DNA from: Glaucostegus cemiculus
Taxonomy: Eukaryota
Assembly (NCBI GenBank): GCA_976551045.1
Contig: CDPCPM010000052.1
Location: forward strand, 14,198,001-14,262,000
Length of the DNA: 64,000 nucleotides
Direction of reading: 5' to 3'
The notes under the pieces were generated by a model that saw only the letters and a list, made by a program, of their open reading frames with translations, had not been told where the DNA came from and searched no databases. A program made the position numbers and the translations under genes. The stretch's first letter is position 1. The number at the start of each line of letters is the position of its first letter. Positions 10,422 through 63,298 of the stretch are shown piece by piece.

Positions 10422-10608
10422 AGAGAAACAAAGGACTGCAGATGCTGGAATATCTAGATGAAAAACACCATGATGCTGGAGGAATTCAACAAGCCAGGCA
10501 GCATCTTTGGAGAAAAACAGTCCTGAAGAAGGGTCCTGACCCAAAAAGTTGACCGCCTGCTTTTCTCCACAGATGCTGCCTGGCCTCCAGCATCAGAGTG
10601 TTTTTCAT
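10422..10608. repeat. Palindromic Penelope-derived repeat with hammerhead motif at 10518-10555 (+)
   Basis: Arms GATGCTGGAGG..GCCAGGCAGCATCTTTGGAGAAAA and TTTTCTCCACAGATGCTGCCTGGCCTCCAGCATC. Confidence 0.8.
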
Positions 10609-13114
10609 TGCAGCATGTAAACCTTTTGCCTTGTCATTTATTGATTGCTAACCAGTCATCAAACCCTGGATTGTAATTTTTTTGCAAAGAATAATCAAGT
10701 GCTAGAGACTTGGGTCTTGACCTTTCATGAAGGTGTAAAAACACTTCTGAAGCAAATAACACACTAAAACATGGCAGCTGACTTTTGAGGTTCATTGAGA
10801 TCCATGGAGCTTGTGGGTTCTAGTGTTGTTTGTTTGTTCTTGGAATTGTGAAGAGATGCTTCAAGGTCATTACATCAAAGATCCTTTGTCACTCTGGGAT
10901 CATGCTCAGCAACAGAGTTTATAACTGAATAAGTGAGTTTTAGAATTAGCTGCAGTAATTGCCAAGGCAATAAGTGGCACAGACGGCAAGTCAACGAGTG
11001 TTGGCTCAAGTTGTTGGCTCATCCTTTTCCACTTCACCACGAAGCAGATCAATACCATGAACCATGATTTACTGGATCAGACACCAAGCCATTCAGTGTT
11101 TTTTCTTATCAATTTACTTAGTCCTTTATTTTGAGTTCACTCTTTGTTGCTTCTTGAAGAGAAGACCCACATCCAATCTCCCCATCGCCCCTTCCAGTGG
11201 GAGACAAAATGGTTCTCCAGTCAGCCAGATGCTCTTTCCAACCAAATAATATATTTTTGCCTTTTTTAACAGCTTTTCCCATTAGTTGTGTACACTTCGG
11301 CTGGCAAATATTACACTGCCAAATGTGTTGAGAAAAAGTGTGCCTGATTGAACTTTGTGTGCATCCCAGACCAGAAGTTACCTACATTGTTAAACTCTCT
11401 GTTTTTTGTTTGTTAGTTGCCCACTTATTCTGATGGAGAGGGCTACCAATGGTGCACATGAGATTATTCACAATACAGTTGCATCAGGCTTGTTCACCAA
11501 CATCTTGTATTTAGCTTCCGACCACTTAAATTGAGACAAGGGATTAAATAAACTCCAGGCAATTGGGAGGAGGATATTGACATTCAATGTGATCTTTGGG
11601 ACACTTACATGCATTTTTATCTAGTACTTTGCTGGATTATATGTCACTGATCCTTGGGAAAACAATAGGGTGGAACTCATAATGGAAATGAATTGGAGTT
11701 TGTGTGGGCCAAATTAATTAAGATTTCTGCTGTTAAACATAAGTTAACGGATATTTGAAGTAAAGAGACTTGTTGAATGTGAATAGCTTTAAGGTCCAAT
11801 TATATTAAAAAGCATTTAATCCACTAACCCACTGACTCCACTTGTGATAACACAACCTTTGTTGTTCTGAGACATCTTCTGAATTGACATGGTCGCTATT
11901 TGAAGTGTCGTTCTCTTGTGGTATTCATGGATGCTTGGTTCAAAACAGGTCTTCATGCTGGAATGGTAGAAATAGATACAAAAAAAGAACAAGAGAACAC
12001 CACACAGAGGTTACTGTCTCTACTTCAGTGCCATTCCAAGGCTCCCCCCTTGCCAACAACAACGAAAGCATTTTGCAATGATATACCATTAGTGTGCGAA
12101 AATAAGTTTGAAAACATTTCTCAATTAGACAAATGCTGTACTGCATTGCGCTTTTAAAGCTGTCTCTATGCTGTAGTTGGGGGATGAGGAGAGTTTAGAA
12201 AAAAGGTTCAGAATCATTTCCCAATGATACATGTATTTTTCCTTGGAAATAATCTCATCTATTATTTCCTCACCTCCGCCAACCCCCCAACCCAACCCCA
12301 GAGTCAACCTTGGTCGCTGCTCATCCTATCCAGATCTGAAATGGATTAGCATCTGTTTAAAAATATTGAATGCTAAATTGAAGCATGAGCACATTAAGTG
12401 CTTGTACATAAACTTAATGGGTTGAAAACTCCGCTCTCTGACGTCTTGTTTTTCCGAACCACACTGGTAAATATGAGTAACTCTTCCAAGCTAAACAGGC
12501 AACTGCAGAAGATTTAGATGGTGTATGCATAAAGGGTAAATTTCTGGCACTGTGTTTCTGGCAGGAAGCTGGACCCACTGGCAGAACATATTAAAATTCA
12601 CGCGCCCAATGCCTATGGTTTTCCGACCATTCATTTTAAGCAGGAGCAGAAAATTTCTCTTAGAACTTACTGACACCTATTAGAATTTAAAATTTACATG
12701 AAAAGCTTAAATAATCAGAAAAGATCTGGATGTATACCAGTAAAAGGCATTTCCTGGAGTTCATATTGCTGATAAATACTGGAACCAAAATGTTACTTTC
12801 TCCTGTACAAGTAGGTATCAGTAGAAAATATATTTCAAGCCAGTAGCTGTAACTTTATTGACACCACCGTCACCTGCTTTGAGTACAGTCTATCCTCATG
12901 TTTCCACTTCTGGTGGAGGAGGTCTAGAATCCATTTTGTCACAAATTTTTTTTCTTGCTGAGATACCTGAATATTTTTTCCAGTTCAGTACATTCCCCTT
13001 ATTTGTTGTGCTGATCAATTGCATCAGAAAGCAATGGACTTTATATTCTTACAGTTCGAAACAAAAGTCTTTGGATTGCTCCTCCCAGTCCTTTTACTAA
13101 GTCCATTTTTTTTT

Positions 13115-13285
13115 GGAGCAGCAAACAAAATACTGGAGGAACTCAATGGGTCAGGCAGCATCAATGGAGGGAAGAGGACAGTTGACATTTCCAGCCGACT
13201 CCCTTCATCTGGACTAAAACATCGACTGTCCATTTCCCTCCACAGACCCGCTGAGTTCCTCCAGCATCTTGTTTGTTACCTCAGA
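13115..13285. repeat. Palindromic Penelope-derived repeat with hammerhead motif at 13179-13215 (-)
   Basis: Arms CAAACAAAATACTGGAGGAACTCA and TGAGTTCCTCCAGCATCTTGTTTG. Confidence 0.8.
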
Positions 13286-13887
13286 TTCTCTTGTGTCTCC
13301 ATTGTTTTACTTTGGACGTGTTTCTGTGCTTTTATTTGAAAATGTCATGAATGCTTTGAAAGGGAAAGACACTAACTTGCACACAGGTGGATTTGTTTCA
13401 CCAGATGAAACAAGCTCTCATTCTAATGCCTTTCACGACCTGATGACATCCCAAAGCACTTTCCAGACAATGACTTCCACTGGAAGTGCAATCTCTATCT
13501 GCAGCATTCCTATGCACAGTGCTGCAGACAAGTCATCTGGAATGGGTACATAAAAAATTGTACCATTGTGACCTGACCACCATATCTCCCATGAGAAACG
13601 TACTCAGTTCTCGTTTTAAATTGATGTTGTGTAGGTGAAGGTAAAGTGCAACCAGGCAATCCCTGATAATGGAGTAAAGATGCGTTACTGAGCCCAATGT
13701 GCCATCATATTTATGATTCACAGTGAAGCTTTTCTGCAGCTGAATAAATGATTAAGTAAAATGACATGGTGTTGGCAGGTGGATGTGCTATTTTGTCATT
13801 TTATGATCTATTCTGCCCCTCATGTGTCACACGCCTCAGTGGATGACAGCTCGTGAGAAGTGTCTAATGCACTCCCTTGTCTTACAG

Positions 13888-14001
13888 GTCATACCTTTCC
13901 CAATGTCTTGTGAACTTCATGGAGACTGTGCTTGCCGAGATCCCACAGCACAGGAGCATGGCAAAGCGAGACAGCAACGCTTCTATCACGGACACCATTA
14001 G
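13888..14001 (+). CDS. PAPPA: Pappalysin-1 terminal coding exon (phase 0): VIPFPMSCELHGDCACRDPTAQEHGKARQQRFYHGHH*
   Basis: Branch-like CTAAT at 13864, pyrimidine tract and TTACAG acceptor ending at 13887. Translation closely matches the recalled human PAPPA C-terminus VTPFPMSCDLQGDCACRDPQAQEHSRKDLRGYSHG. Tail-to-tail with ASTN2, as in mammals. Confidence 0.93.
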   Translation, partial: VIPFPMSCELHGDCACRDPTAQEHGKARQQRFYHGHH

Positions 14002-14082
14002 CCAGGAGAAACCGGGAACTGCTAACAGCTGAAGGCAGACTGGAAGAGCCACACATTCTTTGCTGCTTAACGGAGAAACATC

Positions 14083-14275
14083 NNNNNNNNNNNNNNNNNN
14101 NNNNNNNNNNNNNNNNNNNNNNNNNNNNNNNNNNNNNNNNNNNNNNNNNNNNNNNNNNNNNNNNNNNNNNNNNNNNNNNNNNNNNNNNNNNNNNNNNNNN
14201 NNNNNNNNNNNNNNNNNNNNNNNNNNNNNNNNNNNNNNNNNNNNNNNNNNNNNNNNNNNNNNNNNNNNNNNNNNN
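14083..14275. other. Assembly gap (193 N)
   Basis: Run of N in the sequence. Confidence 0.99.
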
Positions 14276-17200
14276 CTGTCTGAAGACTGGAGTGAGAGAA
14301 AAGAATAAAGACATGAACGACACATTGAATGAACAAACCCCAAAATAGCATGTTTTATGCCTGCTTGACTGGCCTCTCCTGGCCAATCCCTTGCCCTCAC
14401 CCACCTGACTCCCACAGTACCGTCTCCCCAATCTCTACTTTATAAGGGTTACAAACACAATACCACCACATCCAAAAAATAGAAAAGTTTTCGGCAAAGT
14501 GAGTAAAAAAAATAGTTCAAATACAACACAAAGATGATTATCCATAGAAAGATTAAAGAACAATTTACAGATGGAAAAGCAATTAATACACACTTCTGAA
14601 AGGAAACAGCTGTTACCATGGCTGTTGCTGCTGCCCGATAACCAGCCTACACACAGTGTAAGAGCAGGTTAACACCAAACCCAAACTTCAGTCTATCTGC
14701 CTTAAGCAAAACTTAAGCTTTGTTTTAAAACCCTTTGATTTCATCTCTTAATCTTTTAATTGAAAACAGATCCAGCCAAAAGAATGAGCCACATTTCAAG
14801 GGAATCAAATCTGCTTGCACTCATTCCAATTGCTCTTCCCAAGGAACCCAATTTCGATCCAGAGGAGATTCAGACCAGTGGAAGGTAACTTTAGGGGATT
14901 GGTGTGAGGATGTTAATGTCACTCCAAAGGTGATCAATGAGTGGAATAAACTTAAGGTGAAGAGAGACAAAAGCCCTTGAAGTGGCTTTATCTGTGTCAA
15001 GAGGGTGATTTATATCAGCAGTTGCTGAAACACTGGCCTTGCACTCCTAAGGACTACCTTGCAAAACCAGATCTGCAAAGGGCAGCATTCCATGAACAGA
15101 ACTGCTAGACACTAGTTTTTACCAATTGGCAATTCTAATTGTCATGAAATACGATTGTGTTGGTTAAATTTAAGAGAATTAAAATCTTAGTCTCTCAGCT
15201 ACTTGGATAAAACCTGAAAGGAACATGAATAAACAGACAAAACAAAAGTCACCTTTCAAAAAATGAATCTCGAAGCAAATCTTGGCAATAGCTTTAACAA
15301 TGCAGATAGAGTTACCATTGAAGAGGACGGCCTGGAGAATGATCACATAGGTTCTTGGTGCAGAATACATGGTGAGTTAGGCATAAAGAAGCTAGGCACT
15401 CGTTCAACCAGAACAGAGTACATACATTGAGCACCTTTAACTAGATCTGCAGCACACACTGTCTACGTTTGTGACTCAGTGCAGATCAGTGCAAGACTAT
15501 ATACTCTGTGGGGGAAAAAGAAGCAGCAGAAAGAATGGTACTCATTGGTTAGCATCAAATATAACTACTGCCATAAATATATCACATAGCTTTGCAGGCA
15601 GTTAAGGAATTGAATCCAAACTGTATAGAGAAAGATAACACTGCTAGCTTACTGAAAGAATTTGCTAAATTCTGTTCTACTAGCTTCCGAAAACCCTGAA
15701 AAGTAAAACTCTTTTTGAAGTGTCTCTGTTGAATTGCCATCAGCTTCTAAATTGCATTCCTTGAAGTAAATGTAAGAGGTAAACTTCCATTCAGTTGGGC
15801 CAGAGAATGTTGTTTAAAAAAGAAACTGCATAATCATTCTATTGAGAAAGGAACAGAAGTTTGGAAATATAATTATAGAAGTCACTGCTATAAATGCTCA
15901 CTGGAACATGATGAATCCCCATTTCCACACACTCAGTGCGTAGAAGCTTTCACAGGGCAGAGGTCAGAATATCAGTGTTGCATGTTTGTAGTTTTACTTC
16001 CAATCTACAATTGTTTATGGCATAGTTTACCTTGGGGCCATTGGCTGGATGATTTCATCCAACTATCTCTGTAAGTTTCATTCAGCACAATGTTTCCAAT
16101 GGGAGATGAACAAGAATAAGTCAAAATATCAGGAGGGAGCATCAAAAGTAGATATTTTCTTGCATTTACAGTTGGGCTACTCCTGATATTTGTCTGGAAT
16201 ATATTTGCTTGTTTAACAGAGGCATTAACCTATTGAATTAAAAATAACTGCAGTGGACAAGTACACAAGTTTGCCAAATATTATCTATTATAAATAACAG
16301 TAATTTATAGTCTTTTAACACCAACAGTCAGAACACTTTGGTCTAACTTCACAGTGGAAAGATAAAGTATCCTGCAATTGAAGTCAATAATTCTCAGTAA
16401 TATTGGTTAACACCTTCTTCAGCTTACACATGGAGAATTGCCATCAGCTTATAAGGTCCTGCCAAGTTATCCCCCAGGATAGGTTTCCTGATGCAAAGTG
16501 CACCGTCCAATAATTTGCAGGGTGACACCAACATCCATTGTAAATTTAGTGGAGCTGGAATATCTGGTTAACAATAATCAGGTGGCACATACAAATAAAG
16601 ATCCCAACAGTATAAATAAAATGATACTACATTGGAAAAAAATGTGAATATCAATTTACAAATTCTCCACAAATTCATGTAAAATTACTTAATCATTCCC
16701 ATTGCAAAGTTGTTAATGTCTTTAAGTAGGTTAGTGCCTTGGTTAAAAGAATGAACAGCAATCTGAGACAAATATGTACCAACATTTGTGCAGTGATATT
16801 TGTGATGTACCTCCATAGCTGATGCTGTAGTCATAATAATATAATGTTAAGGTGAGGATGTATACACTAAAAGGAGAGAATCATGGGAGAAGGATGCACA
16901 TTTTGATTTTCATATCTATCACATGCATGACTTCAGTGATAAGACAAACTTTTGCTTCAGCTTAATTTTTAAAACAGAGAGCAAAGCGCAAAATCTGAAG
17001 CAGTACCACATGCAAACGTCCAAGTTTCTGTAAGTATAACTCTAAATTTTCCAATAGACAGTATTTCCTCACAAACCGGTTGGTCAGGACCGAAGTGGCT
17101 CATACTTCTGGCTGGCTGAGGTGTGTCAAAAAGTGGAACATGCCAATTTCAAAGGGAATTTAAAACAAGCCAAGCTACCTCCCATCTCTCTTCCATTTTG

Positions 17201-20632: not shown

Positions 20633-20638
20633 AATAAA
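20633..20638 (+). terminator. Candidate PAPPA polyadenylation signal AATAAA
   Basis: AATAAA with UGUA motifs upstream and a TTTGTTTTTTTTTTTG tract at about 20688-20703. Confidence 0.5.
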
Positions 20639-21127: not shown

Positions 21128-21298
21128 AAAAAGAACTGCAAATGTTGGAAATCTGAAATATAAACAGAAAATGTTGGAAATATTCAGCAAATCAGACAGC
21201 ATCCATTGAAGGATTCACAACTGTAAACGTTAACCGTTTCTCTTTCCATGGATGTTGCCTGAGCTGCTGAGTGTTTTCAGCATTTTCTGTCTTTATTG
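21128..21298. repeat. Palindromic Penelope-derived repeat, degenerate core
   Basis: Arms ACAGAAAATGTTGGAAATATTCAGCA and TGCTGAGTGTTTTCAGCATTTTCTGT. Confidence 0.75.
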
Positions 21299-22810: not shown

Positions 22811-23389
22811 CACTGTAAAATCACTTTAGCTGCATCTTTAAACACTTGATCGTCTCAGGATTCAAACCCTGGAGACAAACCTATAAAGCTATGCCCACAG
22901 CTTCCCTGTTATCCCTTCACTTCTTATAGGGAGGTCACTAATGCAGAATTACAAATCACTCATTCTAATGCAGACTGGGCAAAGGTGACCAAACTTCCTG
23001 AATTGGAACTACCTTATAAGTGCCAATGAAGTAAAGATTTTTCTGGTATCTGCAACAAAACATTCATTCCACATCATAAAGAAAACAGGTTCATATTGCA
23101 ATATTAAATTAGAATATAAAACTGATCCATTGGATTAAATAGTAGTGTACTTTAAGCGGATTGATGTCATTGGTCAGGTGACTCAGAACTCCATCAATCC
23201 AGGCATGAACTGGAACTGAAAGCTCCTCACCACTACTGTTGAAGAACAGTCTCATTGGGTTTAGGAGAACGTTCATCTTAGTTCTTGCTGTCGTTGTTAC
23301 TTAAAGGGGCACTCATCAGGAGACCTGACCAGGCAGCCTTAGAACTAACTGCAAACTGTTTAAGCACCTTCCACTGCACATGCTACAAT

Positions 23390-25315
23390 AACAGCACTCT
23401 GGAAGATCTCGGCATGTCAAGCAGTTTCTGTGGAGGCAAAAGGTGTAAGTCAATGATATGGGTCAGGACTCTGCATCAGGACTTGGAAGAGGAAAGACTG
23501 TCAGTATGGGGTGGGACAGAGCTGACAGGTGACAGTGGAACCAGATGGGGAGGGGATAATGCACAGATGGAACTAGATGGTGGGAGGGCGTGAAAGAGGT
23601 GAATAAAGGCAGAGGAAAACTAGCAGGAATGGTGAGAATGTGTTAGAGGAGAACAATGAGGGGGAGGGTTCCCTGAAAGTGGAAAATTCAGTGTTCATAC
23701 CATTAGGCTGTAAACTACCTGAGCAGAATTTGAGATGTTCCTCCAATTTACATTTGGCATCTCCGTGCCAGGGACAGTCTGGGAGTGGTAAGGAGAGTTA
23801 AAATGACATACAACTGGAAGTTCAAGAAATCCATCATGGACAGAGCATGGGTGCTCCACAAAACAATTGCCTTGCTGACGCTTGGCTTCACCAATGTGGA
23901 GGAGGCCACGTCGTGAGCACTCAATTCAATAGACCAGGTTAGAGGAAGTCGGCTGAATCTCTGCCTCACCTGGAAGGGTTGTTTTGGTCCCTGGTTGACG
24001 GTGAGGGGGAGGTGAAGGGACAGGTATCACACCTCCTATGGTTACTGGGGAAAGTGCTGGGGACAAGGACGGGTGGGTGGAGAGGGAAAAGCAGACCATG
24101 CAAGTCACAAAGAGAGTGGTCCCTGCAGAAGGCTGAAGGTGGGGAAGATGTAATTGGAGGTGGGATAATGTTGGAATTGACAGAAGTGGCAGAGGACGTT
24201 GGACATGGAGGCTTATGAGGCGAGAGGTGAGGACCAGGGGAACGCTATTGCTTTTCTGTTTGGGGAGAAGGGAGGTGAGAGCAGGTGTGCAGGAAATGGA
24301 AGAAATGCTAGTGAGGGCTGCAGCAGAGGGTGAACCACATTTCCAGAAGAAGGAGAACATTTCAGAAGCTTTGGAGCAGAAGGCTTCATCTTGAGATCAG
24401 ATGTGGTGAAGATGAAGAAACTGAGACAAAGGGTTTGCATCCTTGCAGGAGGCAGAGTGGGAGGATGTACAGTTGAGGTAGCGGTGGGCATCAGTGTGTT
24501 TGTGGAAGATGTCAATGGCAAGTCTGTCCCCTGAAGTGGAGACACAGAGATCCAGAAAAGGAAGAGAAGTATCAGAGATGGTCCAGGTGAATTTGAGGTT
24601 GGGGTGGAAGTTGGCGGCAAAGGTGATGAAATGAACAAGTTCTGCACGAGTGCAGGAAGCGGCCCCAATGCGCTTGTTGGTGTAGTGGAGAAAGATTTGG
24701 GGTGGGTGAGGTGCCACAATAAGTTTGGAACAAGGACTGTTTCATGTAGCCAACAAAAGGCCAGGCATAGCTAAGGTCCAATGTGAATGCCCATGGCGAC
24801 CCCCTTTGATCTGCAGAAAGTGGGAGCAATTGAGAAGTTATTGACGGTAAGGGCAAGTTCTGCCAAATGGATGAGATTGCCAGCAGAGGGGAATTGTCTG
24901 GATCTTTGTTCAAGAGAGAAACAGAGGGCCTGAAGAACATCCTGATGTGGGGTGGAGGTACATGGAGACTGGACATCCATGGTCAGGACAAGTGGTTGGG
25001 ACCAGGGAATTGGAAATTACTGAAATGGTGAAGAGCATGAGAAGTGTCCCAGATATAAATGGGAAAAGACTGGAGGAAGGGAGACAGGATAGAGTCAAGG
25101 AAAGAAGAAATGAGTTCAGAGGGGCAAGAACAGGCAGAAACACTGAGGCTACCAGGGCAGTCCTGTTTACTGATCACAGGTAAGAGATAGAAGCAGGCAG
25201 TGCAGGGTTGGGGCACAATCAGGTTGGGGGCTGTGGAGGGGAGATCTCCTATTGTGATGAGATCTGCAACAGTTGAAGTGACGATGTCTTGGTGTTCATT
25301 ACAGTGTTGCAACAA
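23390..25315 (-). mobile_element. Penelope-like retroelement, 5'-truncated and frameshifted (RT + GIY-YIG endonuclease)
   Basis: ORF fragments KGVAMGIHIGP, FHPNLKFTWTISDTSLPFLDL and SSHSASCKDANPLSQFL (RT/thumb), and TSSNLVY... (GIY-YIG region). Hammerhead-like motif at the 3' end (23448-23483). Confidence 0.9.
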
Positions 25316-25429
25316 GTGTTTTTTTCCCCAGCGTTTAGCTGCTGTACAACTCATTCGCTGTGACAGTGCGGGCAACATTCTTTAACTGCAGACTTCAGGA
25401 CAGGACTTTCAAGGAGGATCAGGAGCATT

Positions 25430-27099: not shown

Positions 27100-27417
27100 A
27101 CTCAGATTTAAAACTCTCATTCTCATGTTCTCATTCCTTCATGGTTATCTCCCTCCTATCTCTATAATCTGCTCAGCTCTTTTTTCCTCGAGATCTAGCC
27201 TCTTGTGTCTCAAAAGTCCCTTCCCTCACCCTTAACTCTAATCTCCAGTGCATCCAAAAATACGTTCCCCAACCTGATGCCTTCTACGTTTCCTCCTATT
27301 CCTTTCAAACCATCCTGAAAAAGAACTCTGTGACCCAACTTTCAGTCACCCCTTTTGGACATCTTTGGGTGAACATTGAATTCTGTTTGATTTTACTTTG
27401 TGGAGACTTTGGAATAT
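27100..27417 (+). mobile_element. L2 3' region relic
   Basis: GATTTAAAACTCTCATTCTCATGTTC...CTCCCTCCTATCTCTATAATCT and a degenerate tail. Confidence 0.55.
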
Positions 27418-27917
27418 TTAATAGGAAGGATGTTGAGGCTTTAGAGAGGGTGCAGAGGAGATTTACTGGGATGCTGCTTGGATTAGAGGGCATATGCTAT
27501 CAGGAGCGGCTGGACAAACTTGGGCTCTTTTCTCTGGAGCGGCGGAGGCTGAGAGGTGTTCTGTTAGAACTGTATAAAATTATGAGGGGCATAGATAGGG
27601 TGGACAAGCAATATCTTTTTCCCATTACTGAGAGATCCAATACCAGAGGGCATGCATTTAAGGTGATAGGGAGTAGGTTCAGAACAGACGTGATGGGTAC
27701 TTTTTTCACTGAGAGAGAGGTGGATGCCTGGGATGTGTTGCCTGATAGGGTGGTGGAGGCAAATTCATTGGGGGCTTTTAAGAGGGGCTTGGATGAGCAC
27801 ATGTATGAGCGGAAGATAGAGGACTATGGGCATTCTGTAGGTAGGAGGGAATAGCTATGTCGGCACAACATTGTGGTCCAAAGGGCCTGTTCTGTGCTCT
27901 ACTGTTTTATGCTCTGT
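27418..27917 (+). mobile_element. Relatively young 5'-truncated CR1 with open ORF2 C-terminus, inserted in an L2 tail
   Basis: RKDVEALERVQRRFTGML...LGLFSLERRRLRG...AFKRGLDEHM and a 3' AAGGGCCTGTTCTGTGCT tail. Confidence 0.92.
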
Positions 27918-28424
27918 TTTTCCATGTCAGTTTTCTAAATGCAGGTTCCTGATTTATATTCTCCTCACCCTGGCTGTAATGCGAAAGGCTTGATACACTT
28001 TTTAGGCAGGGTTATGTTTCATATGGATAGTCTGGCTGCATTTACAGTGGGAGGTAATCTGCTCTGTTAGATTATGATGTAGGCAGAGGAAATGAAAATT
28101 ATCTTCATGAGCCTTGAATTTCTATTACTGTATGTAGTACAATAGGGTTGTGCTCTACTTTACAGAATTTTACTAATTTCTTCATACATTAGATATAGAT
28201 TCTCCTGAAGTCTGATTAGATCTTCAGGGAAGAGCTACAATGTCATATTTCATGCTATTTTAATATCACTTGATAAAATTATTCTGTGTCGATGAAGACA
28301 AGACTTGTTCATAGAAGCAAGTTTTTAACAGGAGGGTTGAGGCCTCCTTTAACCGAATTTACAGGGCACAACGTTCCAGGGATCATTGCCCAGGAGCGTG
28401 AAACATTACAGGTAGGTACTTCTT

Positions 28425-28524
28425 CAACAACAAACAATCTGCTGGAAGAACTCAGCAGGTCGAGCAGCATCTGTGGGAGGAAAGGAATTGTCGATGTTTC
28501 GGGTTGAAACCCTGCATCAGGACT
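28425..28524 (-). repeat. Single arm of Penelope-derived repeat with hammerhead motif at 28489-28524
   Basis: Minus strand reads agtc CTGATGC agggtttcaaccc GAAA ca TC gac. Confidence 0.8.
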
Positions 28525-29189
28525 CTTCAGCTTCAACTTCTTCAAGTTGTCTCTGTTAAAGACAGCTTGTACTGCATCTTCAACCAGCCTGTCGCCCTGA
28601 CACCCTCTAAACATCTCTCTGCTCCACACCACCCAAATCACTACAGTGACTTCAGAAGTTCCTCACTGTTAAATAAGCAGCATGAGAGATTGTTAATCTT
28701 GTATTATTGGGCCAAGTAATTGTAATGTGCCCAAAAACTGTGCCAAAAATAGGGCAACTGACAGCTTTGTGAGTGATTCCCATGAAACTATTTTGCATCA
28801 AGCATAAGGTCGAGACAATAAAATAAGCACTAGATGACAAATAATCTCCTATTCCTATGGTCAAGGACATAAGGAAATAGGAGGAAGGGGAGGCCTCTCA
28901 GCTCTTCAAGCCTGCCCCTCTATGCAAATGAGCATGGCTGATCTGCCCCAGCCCTTCATCCTTTCAAATCGTTCAGGATGAATGACAAAATGTCTGCACT
29001 GAAGTGCAGAGCCAAAATCTAACTTCAGAAATTCCTAAATGTTCAATAAGCAACGTCAAAGATTCTTCATCTTATTGGGCCTGGTAACTATAATGTGCCT
29101 GAAAATGTAAACTGAAGTAATACCCTGCATGGGGCCAGTGAGTGTGTATACCCAAAGCAACATTGTGGAGTCAGTGGAGTGAAATCTCT

Positions 29190-29890: not shown

Positions 29891-29899
29891 CACATCTAG

Positions 29900-37399: not shown

Positions 37400-38830
37400 G
37401 GCCTATGGATAGAAAGAGATGTTGGCTGTCAAGTACCTTTCTATACTAATCCCATTTTTCAACACTCATGGCCCATCACCTCCTATGTCATATATTGTCA
37501 TCTAAATGTTGTGAAAGTACCTGCCTCCATCACCCACTCAGCCAATGTAGTTCAGATTTCAACCACCTTCTGGGTGAAATAATAATCCTCCTTAATTCCC
37601 CTCCACATCTATCCCTCATCTTAAACCTATGCTGTCTGTTCATAGCTACCTCTGCTCAGTGAAACATTCCTCACTGTTCTATGTCCCCCACAGCTTTGTC
37701 TACCTCAGTCAGGACCCCTTCATCTTTCTCCAGCCCAGCCTATCCGGTTTCACCTCATAGCTGAAACACTCCATCCCAGGCAACACTCGGGTCAACCTCC
37801 TCTGCGCCCTCTCCAGTCTGATCATCTTCGCCGGAGGCGAAGGAGCCGGGGGTCGTCGGCCTGCGGGGCCGGAGGCGAAGGAGCCGGAGGTGGTCGGACT
37901 GCGGGGCCGGAGGTGGTCGGACTGCGGGGCCGGAGGTTGTTGATGGTCTGTGGGCCCTGAGGTTGTAGGTCTGCGGGGGTTGGAGGTGGTCGTCGGTGCG
38001 GGGTGAGGCAGGGGGGCTGTTAATGTTTTGATGTTTTTGTCCAGGTGTCCTTTATTGTCTTTGATGTCTTTTGCACATGTATACGTGTAAGTAAAAATCA
38101 ATAAATTGATCCTGAATTTAAGTTCAATCCCCTTAGCTTTTAAGGTGTAATGATCTGTACTATGTATTCTGCCAAGTGTGTATGTGTCTCTGTTGATTGT
38201 TATGTTATTTTTTTGTATGGGACAAGCACCTGAGGAGGACGGTATATCGCTCCTCTGCATACTTTGTATGTATGTGGTTGTGACAATAAAACTGATTCTG
38301 ATTCTGATTCTTCTTCTAATGTGATAACTAGAATTGCACGCAATACTCCAGCTGTGGCCTTACTAATATTTCATATAGTTTTACCATTATCTCCCTGCTC
38401 TTACTTTCTATGACTTCGTCAATGAAAACAAAAATACCATATATCTTCTTAGTCTTGCGCTTCAGAGATCCTTGGACATGTAGAAAAAATTCTTCAACTG
38501 CTCAGTATTTTCTCGAGTCCCACCATTCAGTTGTATATACCTTAACTGTATTTGTCCTCCTAAATTGTAACAGATCACGTTTTTTAGGATTAAGTTCCAT
38601 TTAGCTTTTCTCCAGCCATCATACCAACTGATCAATATCATTTTGTAAAGCCAAACACTAGCCTCCTCGCTGTCAACAACACCAGTAATCTTCATGTCAC
38701 CTGAAAATTTGTTAGTATGTGTAAGCAACAGTAAGAGTCCCATTACCGATCAGGTCACAGGTTTCCAATTGAAAAAACAACCTTCGACCATCACCCTCTA
38801 TCTCCTTATCCCCAAGCCAATTTGACGTAG
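37400..38830 (-). mobile_element. CR1 ORF2 3' part, interrupted by an insertion at 37830-38308
   Basis: LERAQRRLTRVLPGMECFSYE and NKFSGDMKITGVVDSEE (KFADDTK motif). Confidence 0.85.
37830..38308 (+). mobile_element. Retrotransposed insert: CpG-rich 23/15-bp minisatellite, T-rich segment, AATAAA and (CTGATT)3 tail
   Basis: Interrupts CR1; possible TCTTC duplication at 37825-37829 and 38309-38313; tail identical in type to 58330-58352. Confidence 0.75.
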
Positions 38831-44321: not shown

Positions 44322-44611
44322 TTAAGATAAGATTTCTTTATTAGTCACATGTACATCGAAACACACAGCAAAATGCACCTTTGCGTAAAATGCTCTGGGG
44401 GCAGCCCACAAGTGTTGCCACGCTTTCGGCGCCAACATAGCATGCTCACAACTTCCTAATCCATACCTCTTCGGAATGTGGGAGGAAACCGGAGCAGCCA
44501 GAGGAAACACACACAGTTACGGGGAGAACATACAAATTCCTTGCAGACAGTGGCCAGAATTGAACCCGGGTCGCTGGCGCTGTAATAGCATTACGCTAGC
44601 TGCTACGCTGC
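44322..44611 (-). mobile_element. tRNA-derived V-type SINE with alternative (ATCTT)n tail
   Basis: Reverse-complement homolog of 21470-21744. Confidence 0.85.
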
Positions 44612-45859: not shown

Positions 45860-46760
45860 CCATTCCTTCATCACCTTGCAACTGTGTGAAGTTGAAGTAG
45901 GAATAACATCAATTTTCTGCATCACATGCAGCCACAGAAAGTAATTAGGAAGGCAAGTGGTCCGCTCATCTTCAATGCAAGAGGATCTGAGTCCAGAGTG
46001 CATGGACCTTTTCTTGAAATTATATGGGATACAGGTGTGACTGCACATGGAATATTGTGTGCAAGGACTTTTTTTTTTATTTACAACGTGGTAACAGGCC
46101 CTTTCGGCCCTCCGAGTCCACGCCGCCCATTTTTAACCCCCAAATTAACCTACCCGTACGTCTTTCAGAATGTGGGAGGAAACCGGAGCACCCGGAGGAA
46201 ACCCACGCAGACGTGGGAGAACGTACAAACTCCTTACAGACAGCAACGGGAATCGAACCCCGATCGCTGGCGCTGTAACAGCGTCGCGCTAACCGCTACC
46301 CTATCGTGCTGCCCTTTGACTTCCTATCAAAAGAAGGATATATCGAGATAGAGGGAATGCAGTGAAGATTCACCAGATTGATTCCCGAGATGCAAGGAGG
46401 CAAAAAGCAAAGTTAAACATTTAGGAGAGTGAAAGGTGATTTAACTGAAACATACAGTATTTTTTCATGGGGACTGGAAGGACAGATGTCCGGTCAATGT
46501 TTCACCTGCCTAGAATAAGGAAGGTGACCATGCAGAGCTTGAGGTGAGAAGAATCTTCTCTCCAGGAGGATTGAAGAGGCTCAGTCGCCGAGTATATTCA
46601 ATGCAGCGAGCGATAGATAGATTTTTGGATATTAAAAGAATCAAGGGATATGGGGTTAGTGTAGGAAAATGGTGTTGAGGTAAAAAAACGTTCAGTCATC
46701 ATACTTTTGAATAGCACAGCAGGTGTGAGGGGCCAGACAGTCTAATCCTGCTGCTGCTAC
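45860..46760 (+). mobile_element. CR1 3' part, interrupted by a SINE
   Basis: GAGGGAATGCAGTGAAGATTCACCAGATTGATTCC and the downstream CR1 3' region. Confidence 0.75.
46069..46314 (-). mobile_element. Young tRNA-derived V-type SINE with CR1-like 3' stem-loop and poly(A) tail
   Basis: Intact A and B boxes (GGTTCGATTCCC), CpG-rich, near-identical to 49773-50018. Confidence 0.9.
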
Positions 46761-49599: not shown

Positions 49600-50160
49600 T
49601 TTAATTTTCCAAAGTTTCCTGGATTCAGGGTAGGTTCCAATAGATGGAAAATGTAATTCCTTCATTCAGAAAGGGATAAGGCAAGTGGGAAGCTACAAGA
49701 CAGATAGCTTAGAATTTGTCATGGGGAACAATGTTAGAAGTCATTATTAAAGACACTACAGCAGGGCACTTAATTTTTTTTTATTTACAGCGTGGTAACA
49801 GGCCCTTTCGGCCCTCCGAGTCCATGCCGCCCATTTTAAACCCCCAAATTAACCTACCCGTACGTCTTTCAGAATGTGAGAGGAAACCGGAGCACCCGGA
49901 GGAAACCCACGCAGACACGGGAGAATGTACAAACTCCTTACAGACAGCGACGGGAATCGAACCCCGATCGCTGGCGCTGTAACAGCATTGCACTAACCAC
50001 TATGCTATCGTGCCGCCCACTTAGAAAAATTCAAGCTAATCGGGCAAAGTCAATGTGGGTTTGAAAGGGGAATCATGCTTGAGCAAATCATTGGAGTTGT
50101 TTAAAGAAGGAAATTTGTTGTGGATTAAGGGGAATGGGTGGATGAACTAATCCAGGTGTT
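49600..50160 (+). mobile_element. CR1 ORF2 fragment, interrupted by a SINE
   Basis: MLEVIIKDTTAGHL|EKFKLIGQSQCGFERGIML continues across the SINE. Confidence 0.75.
49773..50018 (-). mobile_element. Young tRNA-derived V-type SINE with poly(A) tail and ACTTA target-site duplication
   Basis: ACTTA at 49768-49772 and 50019-50023; interrupts a CR1 ORF2 fragment. Confidence 0.9.
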
Positions 50161-51100: not shown

Positions 51101-51139
51101 TGATTCCTTAATCATTTGCCTACATTAAAAAGTAATTCA

Positions 51140-56009: not shown

Positions 56010-56308
56010 TGGCACGATGGTGCAGCTGGTAGAGCTGCCACCTCACAGCTCCAAGAACCCGGTTTCAATCCTGATCTCCGCTACTGTCTGGGTGGAGCGT
56101 GCACATCCTCCATGTAATCAAGAGGGTTTCCTCCAGGTGCTCTGGTTTCCTCCCACATCTCAGAGACATGCAGCTTAGTAGGTTAATTGACCTCCGTAAA
56201 TTGTCCCTGGTGCATTGGTAAGTGGTCAAGTCTGGGGGACATTGATGAGAATATTGGGAGAATAAAATGGGATTATTGTAAATGGTTGGTTGATGGCTGG
56301 CATGGATC
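56010..56308 (+). mobile_element. HE1/V-SINE
   Basis: A box TGGTGCAGCTGG, B box GGTTTCAATCC, V core. Confidence 0.85.
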
Positions 56309-56316
56309 ACTGGAAC

Positions 56317-56415
56317 CAGTCCAGATGAAAGGTCTTGACCCAAAATGTCGACTGTCCATTTCCCTCCACAGATGCTGCCTGACCTGCTGAGTTCCTCCAG
56401 CATACTGAGTGTTGT
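56317..56415 (+). repeat. Single arm of Penelope-derived repeat with hammerhead motif at 56317-56354
   Basis: cagtc CAGATGA aaggtcttgaccc AAAA tg TC gactg. Confidence 0.8.
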
Positions 56416-57624
56416 GCCACATAGCTGTTAGCTTTCCAAAAATGGCACCTCACTCTCTGGCTCCACATTGAAATTTCCCATCAAGTAGCTTGAATCTGAT
56501 ATCCTTGCACCATAGACACAAAGTAAGCTCATCACAGAAAGTTACAGCTTATTAAAGGTGAAACAAGAAGCCACTTACGATTCATACAGGTGATCGCCCA
56601 GGTTACAACAGTTTGGGTAATGGACATTCACCCTGATTGAATTCACAAATCACAAACAAGAAATCTGGGATACAGAATAAAAATTGCTTTTACAAAATCT
56701 GTGTGAAAAAGAAGTAACTTTTTTTTAACTTGATTTGTTGGTGCATTCTGAGATGATGTGGCTTGGTATTACAGAAGATTGTCATGAAGACTGTTTTTAA
56801 GGACTACATACCCCCCATAATGTGGGGGTTGCCTGTTTTTAATCCCCTCTGGATTAGCTATCCATGGTTCTTTTAACAATGTTATTAACTGCTAGTTAAC
56901 CACTCCGATACTAAAAACTAACTATAATAAGTATAGCATCCCCCCCCCCCCCCCACCCTCCAGAAACTTTTGGCAGTCCTGGTTCATGATTGCACAAAAT
57001 GGAGAAAGAGCTTTGAGATGGCATTTAGAACCTCAGGTTCATTCATCAGGACCAAAGCAAAGTCTGGGTCGAAGGTGTGTACCTCCTCCCAGACTGCCCA
57101 CCTTCACAAGCACAGCCAATCTCACCTTCTCCTCTGCCTGAGTGGAATTTACCCACTCTTCCTATTAATTCCTCACAATCTTTGATTTGTTAATTTTGCA
57201 ATCCCTTAATCTGACTGGTTAAGGAGCAATGAGCTTGCTTGTCCTTTGCACCAAGGTCCCAGATGCTTCGCTTCTATTGATGGGACATTATTAACTGACA
57301 CTTTCAACAATTTGCAGGGCAGGTTTTCTTTGTTATTAAACATGCAAGGGCGAGTCTGGTTGACAGAGGCTGCTGTTCAGTGCTCTGTTTTAGCAAATTT
57401 TATTACTTCTCTAATTGTGCTGTCAGCATTTTTGAACTTCAGAGATTTTACAGCCAATGCCAGACAGTAATTTGGGCTGGGAACTGATGATTCTCTCATG
57501 GTTAAAATTTGAGCTTAAAATTAGAATTTAAAATGATTACACCAAGGACTAGCACATCTTGCTTCAGTGGGGAGAGAAATTATCCTTAGTTGTTAATACT
57601 AAACATGTGCAAGTCAAAAAGCCA

Positions 57625-57755
57625 AAAAAATGCAGAGGTTGGAAATCTGAAATAAAGACATGAGATGCTGGACAGTTTTCACCAGTTCTGATGAAGTTCC
57701 GTTGACCTGAAACTTCTGACCAGTTGAGTATTTGTAGCATATCCTGTTTATATTT
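57625..57755. repeat. Internally deleted palindromic Penelope-derived repeat with intact CTGATGA and GAAA boxes
   Basis: CTGATGA at 57688-57694, imperfect stem agttc-cgtt-gacct, GAAA at 57709-57712. Confidence 0.7.
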
Positions 57756-58020
57756 TCCACAGAGTGTTGGCTGCTGGCTGTACTCGTCTCCACACATTTA
57801 GATTCATTAACTTTATGTGCAAACAATCAGCTGCTGATACTCTCCAATGTGCTTAGGACATTTGAACAAGGATGAATTCCTCCCCCATTGGTGTGTTTTA
57901 ATTGCCACAAACAAGAACATTCCATAAGGCTGAGATGCAGTGATATTGGTCCTTTGAATTGCAAGGATAACAATGGAATCATCAATGGAATGATTTAATG
58001 AATCTATATCTTCATCGTCC

Positions 58021-58352
58021 CTCACCATTCCAGGACGTGCCCTCTTCTCATTACTACCATCGGGGAGGAACTACAGGTGTGGCTGTACAGGTGAAGCTGT
58101 TCCTAAATCATTGAGTGTGGGCCTGGGAAGATGCATACTCAGTGATTTAGGAACACCTTCTTCCCCTCCACCATCAGATTTCTGGACAGTCCACGAACCC
58201 ATGAACACCATTTTGTTATTCATTTTTCATTGCACTATTTATTTATTGTTGCAATTTATAGAAATTTTATGTCTTTGCATTGCACTGCTGCCACAAAGCA
58301 GCAAATTTCGCATGATATAAGTCAGTGATAATAAATCTGATTCTGATTCTGA
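58021..58352 (+). mobile_element. Rex1/Babar-like LINE 3' end with (CTGATT)n tail
   Basis: LFSLLPSGR and FRNTFFPSTIRFL motifs; AATAAATCTGATTCTGATTCTGA. Confidence 0.75.
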
Positions 58353-58678
58353 ATTGGACAAATTGCTCCCAAATACTTGGAGTGAAACATAAATTGTAGC
58401 ACTTGGCTTACCTTAATTACATTTACCATTATTAAAATAGCAGATATTCTGGATGAACCAGTTATGTACAAAAGCTAAAAGGAAAATTTTTGAAAGGCTG
58501 AATAATGAAGCAATGGCTTAAGGAGACAATGGCCCAAACTACGCAGCCACCATTGAAGTGACTATGCTCACATCTGACTTTGAAAAACACCGTCTATAAC
58601 TATTTAGCTTGTCTATGGTATGCATTGCACTTTTCCTAAAGCTGGTTGGAGTTAGACTTCAGGTCCAGCATATCTCTA

Positions 58679-58780
58679 ATGTTGGCAACACTTGTGGGCT
58701 GCCCCCAAAACACTCTCCACAAAAGATGCATTTCACTGAGTGTTTCGATGTGCATGTGACTAATAAAGATAACTTATCTA
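58679..58780 (+). mobile_element. 3' fragment of the (ATCTT)n-tail SINE
   Basis: Homologous to 21630-21744. Confidence 0.8.
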
Positions 58781-59109
58781 ATCAAGGAGACTGCACCGCA
58801 AATCAAACTGAAGAATTCTCACACAGAGCAAATCAGGAAGTAAACAGAATGGATTTTAGCTCATTTCTTAAATACTTAACACACTAAAGACTGGAGTGCA
58901 GCCATGAGAGTAACGGAGAAGCTAAAATATCATAAGCAAAGATTATAAGTAAAAGTAGAATTAATTTTAGAGGCTTATGAAATACTAAACAGACAAAAGT
59001 AGTATTTTAGAGTTAATGAAGTTATTAAACATTTATGATGACTTAGTAACTCATTAAAGATTGATTTAAATTTCATGCAATAAGCCATAATATTCTCAGT
59101 GATAATATC

Positions 59110-59300
59110 AGAGAAGCTCAGTTGCCATCGATGGAGAGAGAAACAGAGTGAATGTTTCAGGTTGATAACCTTCCATCAAAACTGATGTGTATTCATAGAC
59201 ATTGAATAAAGCAGCATGTTGTGAAAAGTCATCAGCCAAAAACATTGACCGCATTTCTCTCATCACAGAAGTTGTCTGACCGTCTCTGATTTTATTCCTG
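59110..59300. repeat. Degenerate palindromic Penelope-derived repeat
   Basis: Minus strand cagtt TTGATGG aaggttatcaacct GAAA ca TT; decayed opposite arm at 59220-59285. Confidence 0.6.
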
Positions 59301-59994
59301 AAAATACTATGGCTTACAGTATAAGATTGATTATGCAGATAAAGCAGGGATGTAAGAAACTTGACAACTCTTTCAAAAGAGGAACAATGGGTTGAATTCT
59401 GTGCTGTGTAACTTGATCTCAAGGTGTAATATTAGTATGTTGGTGAATGACAAACTGGTAAACTAAAGAATAAATACATTTTTACCTGAAAAATTTATCA
59501 AAATTACAATTGAATACTGCTGCTAATGTGAATTTTAGGAATTCCAACCTTCATTCTTCAGCACATTAATCTTGTGAGAGAATACTAAGCTGGAATTTTT
59601 TAGCAAAATATCTCAACAGATTCCTTCCTAATAATACCACTGACTAGTGGTTCCAAAATAAAGAAGACTGGAGCTTTTCTTTTCTCCCAGAGTCCGAATG
59701 AGGTAAATTAGCTCAAGTACAGTGTACTTCTTTGCTGTGACACTCCACAATATGACTCTGAAGGATGTTTAATGAGTTTCATTCTGCACATGAACATCAA
59801 ATATCAAGAGGTTTGTATTTGCAAAATGACCACTTCAAACAGTGCTCAGTTTAGAAATAAGCAGACTTGTTTCACAAATTGCAATATTAACTGTCATCAA
59901 CTTGAGCATGTTGAAGTACAACCTGTAAGTCATAGTTAAAAACAATGATATTTGCCTAAGAGTGGGGCTTCACAACTTGAATCTTCTCTGTCAG

Positions 59995-61260
59995 ATTCAT
60001 AGATTTATAGAGTTATAATCCTTCAGTCCAACTCATCCATGCTGACCAAGATATCAATCTATGCAAATCCCACTGCCTGGATTTGGCCCATCTAGCTCTA
60101 AACCTTTCCCGTGTACCTGTCCAAATGTATTTTAAACACTGTAATTGTACCTGCCTTTACCCCTTCTCTAGCATTCCTTCCAGATAGTTACCTCCCTCTG
60201 CATGAGAAAATTACCCCTCAGATCTCCTTTAAATTTGTCCACTCTCACTTTAAATCCCTGTCCTCTAGTTCTGGACTCCTCTCCTCTGGGGAGAAAAGAC
60301 TATGTCCATCTATCCTACCTCAGCATCTCATAACTTTATGACCATCATCAGGTCACCCCTGAGTCCCCTACGTTCCAATGAGAATAAACCCAGGCTATCC
60401 AATCTTTCCTTATAACTACAGTCCCCCATTCCAGACAATATCCCAGTGAATCTCGTCTGCACTCTCTCTATTGCTACTGCATCCTTCCTGCCGTGTGGTG
60501 ACCAGAACTACACACAATATTTTGTACAGCTACAACATGACATCTTAACTCTTACTCAATGCCTCGGCTTATGAAGGCAAACTGATCAAATGCCTTTTTC
60601 ACCACTCTGTCCAGCTGTGTCACCACTTTCAGGGAGCAATGGACTTGCATCTCAAGGTATCCCTTCATATCAATATTCCTAAGGTCCCTGCCATTTGCTC
60701 TATGTGTCGTACCAGAATTTGACTTCCCAATGTGCATCACCTCACACTTGTCAGGATTAACTTCCATCTTCCACCACTCCGCCCAACTTTCCAGCTGATC
60801 TATGTCCCACTGTATCCTTTGATAAGCTTCTTTCTCCGATTCCACCAGTTTTCATGTCATCTGAAAACGTACTAATCAGACCATCTACCTTCTCATCCAA
60901 GTCATTTATAAATATTACAAACCACAAAGGTCCCAGCACTAATACCTGTGGTACACTACTTGTTATAGGCTTCCAGTCAAAAAAAATACACCCCTTCACC
61001 ACGACCCTTTCCCTCCTATCACCAAGCCAATTTTGGATCCAGTTTGCCAACACACCTTGGATCCCTTGTGACTTAACCTTCCTGATCAGCTTACCTCATC
61101 AAGAGCCTTACTAAAGTCCAAGTAAACCACATCTACCACTCTGCCTTAATCAATTTTCTTAGTTACCACCTCAAAAAACTCAGTCAGATCTGTGAAACAT
61201 GATCTCCTCCATACAAAATCATGCTGACTCCTCCTAATCAGTCCCTGCCTTACCAAGTGG
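59995..61260 (-). mobile_element. CR1 ORF2 (RT domain to 3' tail)
   Basis: ITSSVPQVLVLGPLWFVIFINDLDE...STFSDDMK and WKMEVNPDKCEVMHIG. Confidence 0.92.
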
Positions 61261-63197
61261 ACATAAACAGGTGAGGAGCGTGCTTTAGGGGCTGGTCCTG
61301 GTGTGACTGAAGTGTCCTGATGGACATTAAATGAAACAGCATGTTGAAGGTTTCCTAGTCACTGCTAACACATTTGGAAATCAATGAATTAATTCATAAA
61401 ACAAACCTACTGTAAATGTGTTACAGGCTGGTAGTCATGCACATTGTATTTTGCATGGTGCCAGGGGCATATTTGTGTAACTTTAACTGCCAAGACTATC
61501 ATGGCAGGGATCCAGAAACCAGCAGATGGTGCATCTTTTGGACTCACCAGTTAAACAGAAAGAATAGTGAAGCATGACAGAATCACACATACTTATCCCT
61601 TGTTAATGGTGCACTTCTGTGTAATGCATTAATCATAATATTTAATTACAGAGTCAATTACAATCACATTTGAGAACTGACCAATTTTTGATTTTTGTGA
61701 ATGGGTATAACAGCAGAGATTTTTTTTTGCTTTGTACCTTTGAAATTAAATACCTGAGGCAAAAGGAAATGTTTAGTGTCTGCCCAGAAGGGGAGTCTCT
61801 GAAATAGCTTGCAGGGAAGCTGGAAGGGCAAACAGATCAGGCAGAACAATCGATTCCAGGGTGACATTCAGGCTCCAGACTGGAAAACCTGAGAAATATA
61901 CTTTCAAAATTCCCTTCCTTGAGAATTTATAGGAGTCTTGCTCATAGACCACAGACTGCAGCTTCTGCTTTTCCAACCATTTTAATGAACATGAGTGGAA
62001 TGAAGGGCAATGATTCTGTGATTTCCCAAACCATACCCCCTCTGGATGTTGCTTCACACAGAGAGTGGCCCTTAAATACCAGTTGTTGATGAAACAGTGA
62101 TTCGTGCAAGAAGGCCAGTAATTAAAAACATTTTCTGTACAGCCCCATGCTTTTACGTGAAGGAGAAACCTCTGGCCTTGATTCATTACACACACTGTTG
62201 TTTAACGGCTTAACACCCACCATATTCTCCTTTTACTGTTAATGAACATCACTAACTTTTCCAAGCTAAATAAAACCAGAACAGCAAAGTGTGTTATTAA
62301 ATATTTGAACACTGTTTTACTATCCTCCATGAGATCTGCTCCAAAGACCTGTGATCTGTCAGTGGATCTGACTCACACCCTCCTCTTCACATACAAAAGC
62401 ACACTTTCAAATTAAATGCTAGATTGTGGATGTGAAACATTACTATGAGGGAACATTGCACCATTTGTACAAAAGACTGAGGCTTTCCCAACTGGCTTTC
62501 ACTTGAAGGTTTTCACCCACTGTCTGAGTGAGGTGGTAATTCTGTGGGAGGAAGTCAAAATAGAAAGGTTAGTTTATTGGTTTTGGTCTTTTGGATGATT
62601 ACTGGCACATCCGGATGAGGGTGAGGAACACTTAAGGTAAACACGCTCTGAGGTGCAACCTGACTTAACTAAGAATGCAGTTACCATGACAGTGGTTGCT
62701 GCAGAGCAGGTTCATAGAGGAACAGCTGTAAAGGAGTTACATTTAAGTGCCATGTAAAGAAGGTGTAATTGCACTTGAGGGCTAATTGACTTTAGCCAAT
62801 GCAGAGCAGAACAATAAAGACAGGTCCCAGAGACAATTCCTATACATGTCAACAGAGTGACTTGGGTAGGGAGATGAAAATTGGGTGGGATTCCCAATGC
62901 TGATTGCTATCAGCAATTCCAGCTGTCAGTGGGCTGGGTGAAGACGTTGAGAAAGTCAACAACAGGCTTTTCTCGAGGATCCTGCTTCATGTTAGAGTAT
63001 GACCATTCACTCCGAACATTACCATGTGAATTAAGGTGACTTTACAGTCCCACAGCCAGTCTTCAAAACCGTAGCTTGTCAAAAAACTATGTGACCTTGC
63101 ACGAGGAAACAAAACAAAAAGAGACTGAAAGTTCTTGCAGGCATTTGATCTTGTTAGCCTTAATAATATTTGTTCTGTTGATCCTTCATGGACCTTT

Positions 63198-63298
63198 GGA
63201 GCAACAAAGAAGATGCTGGGGGAACTCAGTGGTTCAGGCAGTATCTGTTGAGGGAAATGGACGTAGGCGTTTCAAGCTGAGATCCTTCATCTAGACTG
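63198..63298 (-). repeat. Single arm of Penelope-derived repeat with decayed hammerhead motif
   Basis: Minus strand reads cagtc TAGATGA aggatctcagctt GAAA cg CC. Confidence 0.7.

What the first reader, a model, noticed from the sequence alone, without database searches (positions are those of the whole stretch)
10422..63298. Dispersed palindromic Penelope-derived mini-elements carrying minimal hammerhead ribozyme motifs
Seen: at least seven short repeats (10518-10555 +, 13179-13215 -, 28489-28524 -, 56317-56354 +, 57684-57713 +, 59147-59184 -, 63263-63298 -) share the layout stemI(cagtc) - CTGANGA - stemII(gggtc..gaccc) - GAAA - cg - TC/TT - stemI'(gactg). Several copies sit inside long inverted arms with no coding capacity. 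Many deviations are CpG transitions (cGAAAcg to cAAAAtg). Known: Penelope-like elements carry minimal type I hammerheads with a palindromic helix III that are thought to cleave as dimers. Inference: these are ribozyme-bearing non-autonomous derivatives. A head-to-head pair would put a sense hammerhead on either strand, while the hairpin could suppress it. No copy here is clearly intact, and the repeats may simply be inverted Penelope termini left after deletion.
Basis: partly seen in the sequence, partly recalled or inferred. Interest (0 to 1): 0.7.

Follow-up and report, generated by a model that had tools for sequence, protein, structure and literature searches.

The report
Head-to-head stumps of Penelope-type retrotransposon
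These short repeats are real, decayed end-pieces of a Penelope-type jumping gene that carry its usual small ribozyme motif, now broken; each landed separately, and the mirror-image ones likely arose when the element copied its RNA into both cut ends of the target, a layout already described for this class.

Summary
All seven motifs are in the window, plus an eighth that ends a decayed 2-kb Penelope-like (Neptune-type) element; none is intact and four of the seven sit in palindromes. The genome holds roughly 160 such ends per Mb. In 90 loci picked by a motif downstream of the ribozyme, 37 are head-to-head. These have their own target-site duplications (26 of 37, chance 1%), nearly unique junctions at microhomologies, and one tailed plus one untailed arm (33 of 37). 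Short and long copies share all four subfamilies. So they are separate, 5'-truncated insertions, not deletion relics and not a self-copying palindromic family. The likely mechanism is priming at both target ends from the element's two start sites. 5' ends pile up at the hammerhead's first bases, not at its cleavage site, and none of 43 arms of short palindromes runs far beyond, which suggests a short RNA with a fixed start (not tested; no RNA reads). Inverted copy, one-sided tail, duplication and minimal hammerhead are all published. This scan reached the same reading before, in this genome and at least five others.

The parts
2414..2515 (-). old single Penelope-type end, motif heavily decayed
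   Evidence: nhmmer 32 bits; no clear duplication
10344..10422 (+). older copy of the same end; the younger palindrome is inserted in its tail
10423..10606 (.). head-to-head insertion: tailed inverted arm 10423-10517, hammerhead remnant 10518-10555 (+), untailed arm to 10606; joined at helix I
   Evidence: duplication 10410-10422 / 10607-10619, 11 of 13
13113..13297 (.). head-to-head insertion; hammerhead remnant 13179-13215 (-), subfamily with U4A; second arm starts inside the motif
   Evidence: duplication 13102-13112 / 13298-13308, score 9
23374..25380 (-). decayed 5'-truncated long Penelope-like element (RT and GIY-YIG remnants), ending in a hammerhead remnant at 23446-23483
   Evidence: a related copy matches Pfam RVT_1, E 2e-4, below the curated cut-off
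28428..28524 (-). single short insertion starting at the motif's first bases; hammerhead remnant 28489-28524, subfamily with C at position 9
   Evidence: duplication 28418-28427 / 28536-28545, 10 of 10, with 11 filler bases
56316..56419 (+). single short insertion; hammerhead remnant 56317-56354 (U4A subfamily, GAAA lost to CpG decay)
   Evidence: no duplication found
57624..57750 (.). old palindrome remnant; motif 57684-57713 (+) lacks the 3' strand of helix I
   Evidence: not found by the HMM; no duplication found
59081..59316 (.). old palindrome; hammerhead remnant 59147-59184 (-), partial second copy on +
   Evidence: no adjacent duplication found
63195..63302 (-). short insertion; hammerhead remnant 63263-63298 (U4A subfamily); a 4-7 base stub before it may be a tiny inverted arm
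   Evidence: duplication within 63175-63194 / 63296-63315, score 12

Best explanation
These are separate, 5'-truncated insertions of the end (pseudo-LTR) of an endonuclease-bearing, likely Neptune-type Penelope-like retrotransposon, each with a decayed minimal hammerhead, and the palindromic ones likely arose when both nicked ends of the target primed reverse transcription. Shown: own target-site duplications, two classes of 3' end about 35 bases apart, one of each class per palindrome, varied junctions at microhomologies, 5' ends piled up at the motif's first bases. Inferred: the protein nicks both strands about 13 bases apart; one end primes at the outer start site (+135) and the other at the inner (+100) on the same RNA or a sister RNA; the two cDNAs anneal through short self-complementary bits of the RNA (often the hammerhead's own stems) and are repaired into a head-to-head unit. 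Inferred less firmly (about 0.55): the template of the short class was an RNA beginning at about +1, the hammerhead's first base, such as the 5' end of the element's transcript. The ribozyme is a passenger in these copies.
For: Numbering: 0 = first base of helix I. 90 loci chosen by a 34-mer downstream of the motif: 37 head-to-head, 53 single. Duplication score >=9 in 26 of 37 palindromes and 8 of 25 short singles, against 1.3% and 1.1% for shuffled pairs; median 13.5 bases. Arms: 33 of 37 one tailed plus one untailed, 0 both tailed, 4 neither; Fisher p 1e-6. The arm reaching further 5' is the untailed one in 10 of 25, which a plain fold-back cannot give. Microhomology mean 1.79 in 28 junctions against 0.57 (jitter) and 0.50 (simulated through a re-run of the same junction caller). 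Arms agree at subfamily sites 59 of 77 against 0.51 shuffled. 5' ends: 23 at -1..+3 against 6 at -24..-2 in 100 rows counted by eye (p 1e-12); 29 of 80 ends at -1..+3 and 5 of 80 at the cleavage site, about background. 0 of 43 arms of short palindromes that reach +10 pass -100, against 4 of 7 traced inverted arms of long elements (p 1.5e-4). In vitro a lizard PLE protein nicks and extends both strands, starts at two internal sites that define the tail, and does not need ribozyme cleavage (PMC11167929).
Against: No biochemistry or RNA ends were obtained. No full-length element was found, so its 5' end is unseen. The in vitro work is on a Poseidon element, not Neptune. Why the two ends use different start sites is unexplained. 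18 of 77 subfamily sites differ between arms, and arm likeness could also come from later gene conversion. A cap-derived G is not established: 314 G against 180 A before the start, but about 157 against 126 once inverted copies are removed. The start site also looks like a 3' splice site, as in D. virilis (PMC4209133), so it may be a block rather than an RNA end. The 90 loci are biased to well-kept copies of the commonest subfamilies.
Confidence: 0.72

Rival explanations
1. Fold-back self-priming: one strand folds on itself near the hammerhead and is copied back; the endonuclease then cuts the hairpin with a stagger, leaving a tail on one arm (the reading of PMC3846280 and PMC8557442).
For: Published interpretation. 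Microhomology at junctions and same-subfamily arms fit it too. The 10423-10606 unit is joined at helix I, a natural fold-back point.
Against: The more complete arm is tailed in 15 and untailed in 10 of 25; a fixed stagger predicts one class. Five junctions sit at a site that would need a 2-base loop. Tail ends match RT start sites in vitro.
Confidence: 0.14
2. The single 100-135 base stump is itself a SINE-like RNA: solo copies are transcribed from an initiator at +1 and re-mobilised in trans; palindromes are its double-primed products.
For: Fixed 5' and 3' ends, duplications and very high copy number; initiator-like sequence at +1 (consensus recalled).
Against: No column separates 29 short from 28 extended copies (smallest p 0.023 of 93); all four subfamilies occur both short and extended.
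Confidence: 0.08
3. One reading: a palindromic, ribozyme-bearing mini-element that amplifies as a unit.
For: Units are bounded by duplications; three junction pairs occur twice.
Against: Among 41 raw calls only three junction pairs recur, each twice; 8 loci with one identical junction differ in subfamily, arm order and length; both ends are RT start sites, which a single transcript would not give; the long hairpin (about -190 to -205 kcal/mol) removes the ribozyme fold in two of three modelled junction types.
Confidence: 0.04
4. Inverted termini left after deletion of a longer insertion.
For: Long elements with an inverted 5' arm exist.
Against: Deletion would not pile 5' ends at +1 or give duplicated singles of 100-135 bases.
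Confidence: 0.02

Closest known systems
Insertion units of endonuclease-positive Penelope-like elements (Pen2a_Av, PMC3846280; PMC8557442 Fig. 2 legend)
   Same: 5' truncation, adjacent inverted 5'-truncated copy, 30-40 base tail on one end only, short target-site duplication, microhomology joins.
   Different: Here the whole unit is often only two pseudo-LTR stumps, at very high copy number, with 5' ends fixed at the hammerhead's start; duplication about 13 bases against 8-10 in the rotifer examples.
Minimal hammerheads of metazoan PLE pseudo-LTRs (PMC4209133)
   Same: Type I, short helix I, unpaired base between 9 and 10.1, palindromic remnant of helix III, mostly single dispersed motifs, some close pairs on opposite strands; helix I starts at a splice-acceptor-like site as in D. 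virilis.
   Different: Copies here are decayed; two subfamilies carry fixed core changes (U4A in 12, C at position 9 in 20 of 67 copies).
Poseidon element of Anolis (PAc, PMC11167929)
   Same: Two internal RT start sites that define the tail; both strands nicked and extended.
   Different: Different clade; that paper does not describe head-to-head stumps in the parts read.
Non-LTR retrozymes (10.64898/2026.07.22.740005)
   Same: Non-coding, hammerhead-bearing, PLE-related.
   Different: Defined as head-to-tail tandem repeats; these are single or head-to-head, with no separate lineage.
L1 twin priming (recalled, no call)
   Same: Second target end primes a second, inverted cDNA; microhomology join.
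   Different: In L1 the inverted part comes from upstream RNA; here both arms copy the same 3' end.

Membership tests
EN+ Penelope-like element (Neptune-type) | RT followed by C-terminal GIY-YIG endonuclease | tested here: met
   Related copies give RT motifs and a GIY-YIG-like stretch downstream (read by eye); Pfam RVT_1 E 2e-4, below cut-off; no Pfam GIY-YIG hit in 6 fragments
EN+ Penelope-like element (Neptune-type) | CX2-5CxxC linker before the endonuclease (absent in Penelope/Poseidon) | tested here: met
   C-x4-C-x2-C in L094 frame; definition PMC8557442
EN+ Penelope-like element (Neptune-type) | placement in the Neptune clade by RT tree | not tested
   no reference set; Nematis shares the linker
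EN+ Penelope-like element (Neptune-type) | inverted 5'-truncated copy, one-sided 30-40 base tail, target-site duplication | tested here: met
Minimal type I hammerhead of PLEs | core CUGANGA / GAAA / UH with helices I and II, bulge after A9 | tested here: met
   met by the majority sequence and 8 of 67 sampled copies; 0 of 8 window copies
Minimal type I hammerhead of PLEs | covariation in helices I and II | tested here: inconclusive
   double changes 6 at 4/33 and 3 at 13/24 in 67 copies, near the 4.5 and 2.3 I estimate by hand from independent decay; two subfamilies weaken helix I instead
Minimal type I hammerhead of PLEs | self-cleavage as a dimer | not testable with these tools
   needs in vitro transcription
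Non-LTR retrozyme | head-to-tail tandem units each with a hammerhead | tested here: not met
   window copies are single or head-to-head; no tandem array seen in the 90 loci by eye
Self-amplifying non-autonomous family (MITE- or SINE-like) | uniform master sequence with private mutations | tested here: not met
Self-amplifying non-autonomous family (MITE- or SINE-like) | defined ends and target-site duplications | tested here: met

The most novel reading that the evidence does not exclude
The stumps record an undescribed in vivo mechanism: one PLE complex primes both target ends at its two different start sites on a short RNA that begins at the hammerhead's first base, so every palindrome gets exactly one tail and both arms share one 5' limit; this would replace the published self-priming model, and if solo stumps supply that RNA they form a PLE-dependent SINE.
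Probability: 0.35. Interest if true: 0.55.

Novelty: new member of a known kind. Interest (0 to 1): 0.3.

Why it matters
As a feature it is ordinary debris. Its value is as a large fossil record (roughly 4-5 x 10^5 ends if the 600-kb sample is typical) of how Penelope-like elements insert, which is still open: the one-tail rule, the coupled 5' limit of the two arms and the absence of ends at the cleavage site give sharp predictions for the existing in vitro system and argue that the ribozyme does not set the template's 5' end.

Tried and rejected
Rfam: no hammerhead hit, only hairpin look-alikes below gathering score. Pfam on 7 window frames: nothing for the Penelope remnant. Sequencing runs: no RNA holder listed, so no reads were laid; this says nothing on expression. 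Full-length element: none among 29 long copies; no continuation past the tail shared among the 90 loci. Cap-G: inconclusive. Spliced first exon upstream of the acceptor-like site: no shared sequence seen by eye in the 100 rows. 5' ends at the cleavage site: not enriched. Core versus non-core conservation in 27 copies, 10% against 16% changes, too small a set to read as selection. One search's 3' ends overshot and were redone. Rows dropped: 4 of 41 inversion calls were reclassed as single (L121, L140, L163, L166; L163 later looked like a real short arm); 3 of 37 left out of the arm comparison; 9 of 37 left out of the microhomology test (an arm before -2). Lünse et al. (PMC5785218) is not held.

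Full report
Observation. The window is contig C52:14198001-14262000 of a 2.85-Gb genome with CpG depletion (0.24); the repeats look like those of sharks and rays (recalled, no call). All seven motifs are present. BLAST and an HMM add an eighth at 23446-23483, an old copy at 2414-2515, an older host copy at 10344-10422 and a palindrome without a whole motif at 21134-21297. No window copy is intact (0 of 8; 57684 lacks the 3' strand of helix I). Four of the seven are in palindromes. Rfam finds no hammerhead.

Parent element. The eighth motif ends a decayed 2-kb element with many relatives at about 70% identity. Stop-free stretches of related copies show RT motifs, a C-x4-C-x2-C linker and a GIY-YIG-like stretch (by eye); one matches Pfam RVT_1 at E 2e-4, below the curated cut-off. 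The linker marks Neptune and Nematis, not Penelope/Poseidon (PMC8557442, passages). No tree was built and no full-length copy was found. An HMM of the end finds 96 loci in 60 evenly spaced 10-kb stretches from five large contigs, about 160 per Mb.

The ribozyme motif. Numbering from 0 = first base of helix I, the majority of 26 copies has the full minimal type I core with an extra A after A9, as described for PLEs (PMC4209133, parts 1-2 of 4). In the sample, 11 of 67 copies keep the core and 8 also keep both helices; 12 carry U4A and 20 carry C at position 9 as subfamily traits; covariation is not above decay noise. Model palindromes fold into long hairpins that remove the hammerhead helices, except the helix I type, where forming them costs 2.2 kcal/mol as in the monomer.

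Anatomy. I took 90 of the first 100 listed matches of a 34-mer lying downstream of the motif (3,111 matches in all). A junction aligner called 41 head-to-head; 4 weak calls were reclassed, leaving 37 and 53 single. 3' ends fall near +100 or +135. Of 37 palindromes, 33 have one arm of each class, 4 two short arms, none two long (p 1e-6). Duplications scoring >=9 flank 26 of 37 palindromes, 8 of 25 short singles and 1 of 10 mid-length singles; shuffled pairs give 1-2%; median 13.5 bases. Four window units show them. So each unit is its own insertion, not a deletion relic.

Not a self-copying palindrome. Only three junction pairs recur, each twice. Eight loci with one identical junction differ in subfamily, arm order and length. 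No column separates 29 short from 28 extended copies, and all four subfamilies occur in both forms. Junctions favour self-complementary bits of the RNA: mean 1.79 bases in 28 junctions against 0.57 and 0.50 in two controls. The two arms usually share a subfamily (59 of 77 sites, 0.51 shuffled).

Mechanism. A lizard PLE protein nicks and extends both strands, starts at two internal sites that define the tail, is predicted to be a dimer and does not need ribozyme cleavage (PMC11167929, parts 1-2 of 4). Priming at both target ends, one at each site, followed by annealing of the two cDNAs explains the one-tail rule, the duplication and the microhomology (inferred). The published alternative is self-priming with endonuclease resolution (PMC3846280 and PMC8557442, passages). 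Against it, the arm that reaches further 5' is untailed in 10 of 25 and five junctions would need a 2-base loop; a variable stagger could still rescue it.

The 5' boundary. Of 100 listed matches of a motif starting at +3, 23 end at -1..+3, 6 at -24..-2 and the rest run on upstream (by eye; p 1e-12). The cleavage site (+33) is not enriched: 5 of 80 ends. In short palindromes 0 of 43 arms that reach +10 pass -100, while 4 of 7 inverted arms traced to long elements do (6 of 9 with two uncertain ones). Adjacent inverted arms were found in 3 of 46 extended copies (about 6 by eye) against 37 of 62 short ones. This coupling fits a short template beginning near +1 better than a random block. The site reads both as an initiator and as a 3' splice site (consensus recalled); in D. 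virilis an intron ends at helix I and the transcript starts further upstream (PMC2377424, passages), which counts against a start at +1. A cap-derived G is inconclusive. I put the short-RNA step at about 0.55.

Comparison and novelty. Inverted truncated copy, one-sided tail, duplication and minimal hammerhead, including close pairs on opposite strands, are published. Retrozymes are tandem (10.64898/2026.07.22.740005, parts 1-3 of 5; PMC6765202, passages). I found no paper stating double-ended priming or the 5' pile-up for PLEs in searches; subscription papers, Repbase/Dfam entries and all supplements were unseen and may hold it, and PMC5785218 is not held. Earlier notes of this scan, seen after I had recorded my reading, agree in this and at least five other genomes; they are not independent support.

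Verdict. Observation confirmed; interpretation partly supported; a new member of a known kind; interest 0.3.

Noticed in passing
window 10344-10619: The younger palindrome inserted into the tail of an older copy of the same end; its duplication is taken from that tail.
   Followed up: partly
window 13179, 56317, 63263 (U4A) and 23446, 28489 (C at position 9): Whole subfamilies amplified with fixed changes in the ribozyme core (12 and 20 of 67 sampled copies), suggesting cleavage was dispensable or the core is a variant.
   Followed up: partly
window about 23965 (-): A strong splice-donor-like site lies in the linker/endonuclease region about 480 bases upstream of the acceptor-like site at the hammerhead start; no spliced copy was seen in 100 rows.
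   Followed up: partly
L253, L256, L270; window 63299-63302: Some apparent single copies have 4-15 base stubs matching an RT start site in inverted orientation, so second-end priming may be commoner than counted.
   Followed up: no
window 46070-46314 and 49774-50018; 44470-44609: SINE-like repeat family, one pair 94% identical over 245 bases.
   Followed up: no
window 27168-27854 and 60757-61095: Fragments of a CR1-like LINE (name recalled); the second matches Pfam RVT_1 at E 2.5e-4.
   Followed up: no
window 37830-37928: GC-rich 38-base tandem repeat.
   Followed up: no
window 59181-59221 and 61306-61346: The old subfamily at 59147 has a different upstream sequence, shared with 61306-61346.
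   Followed up: no
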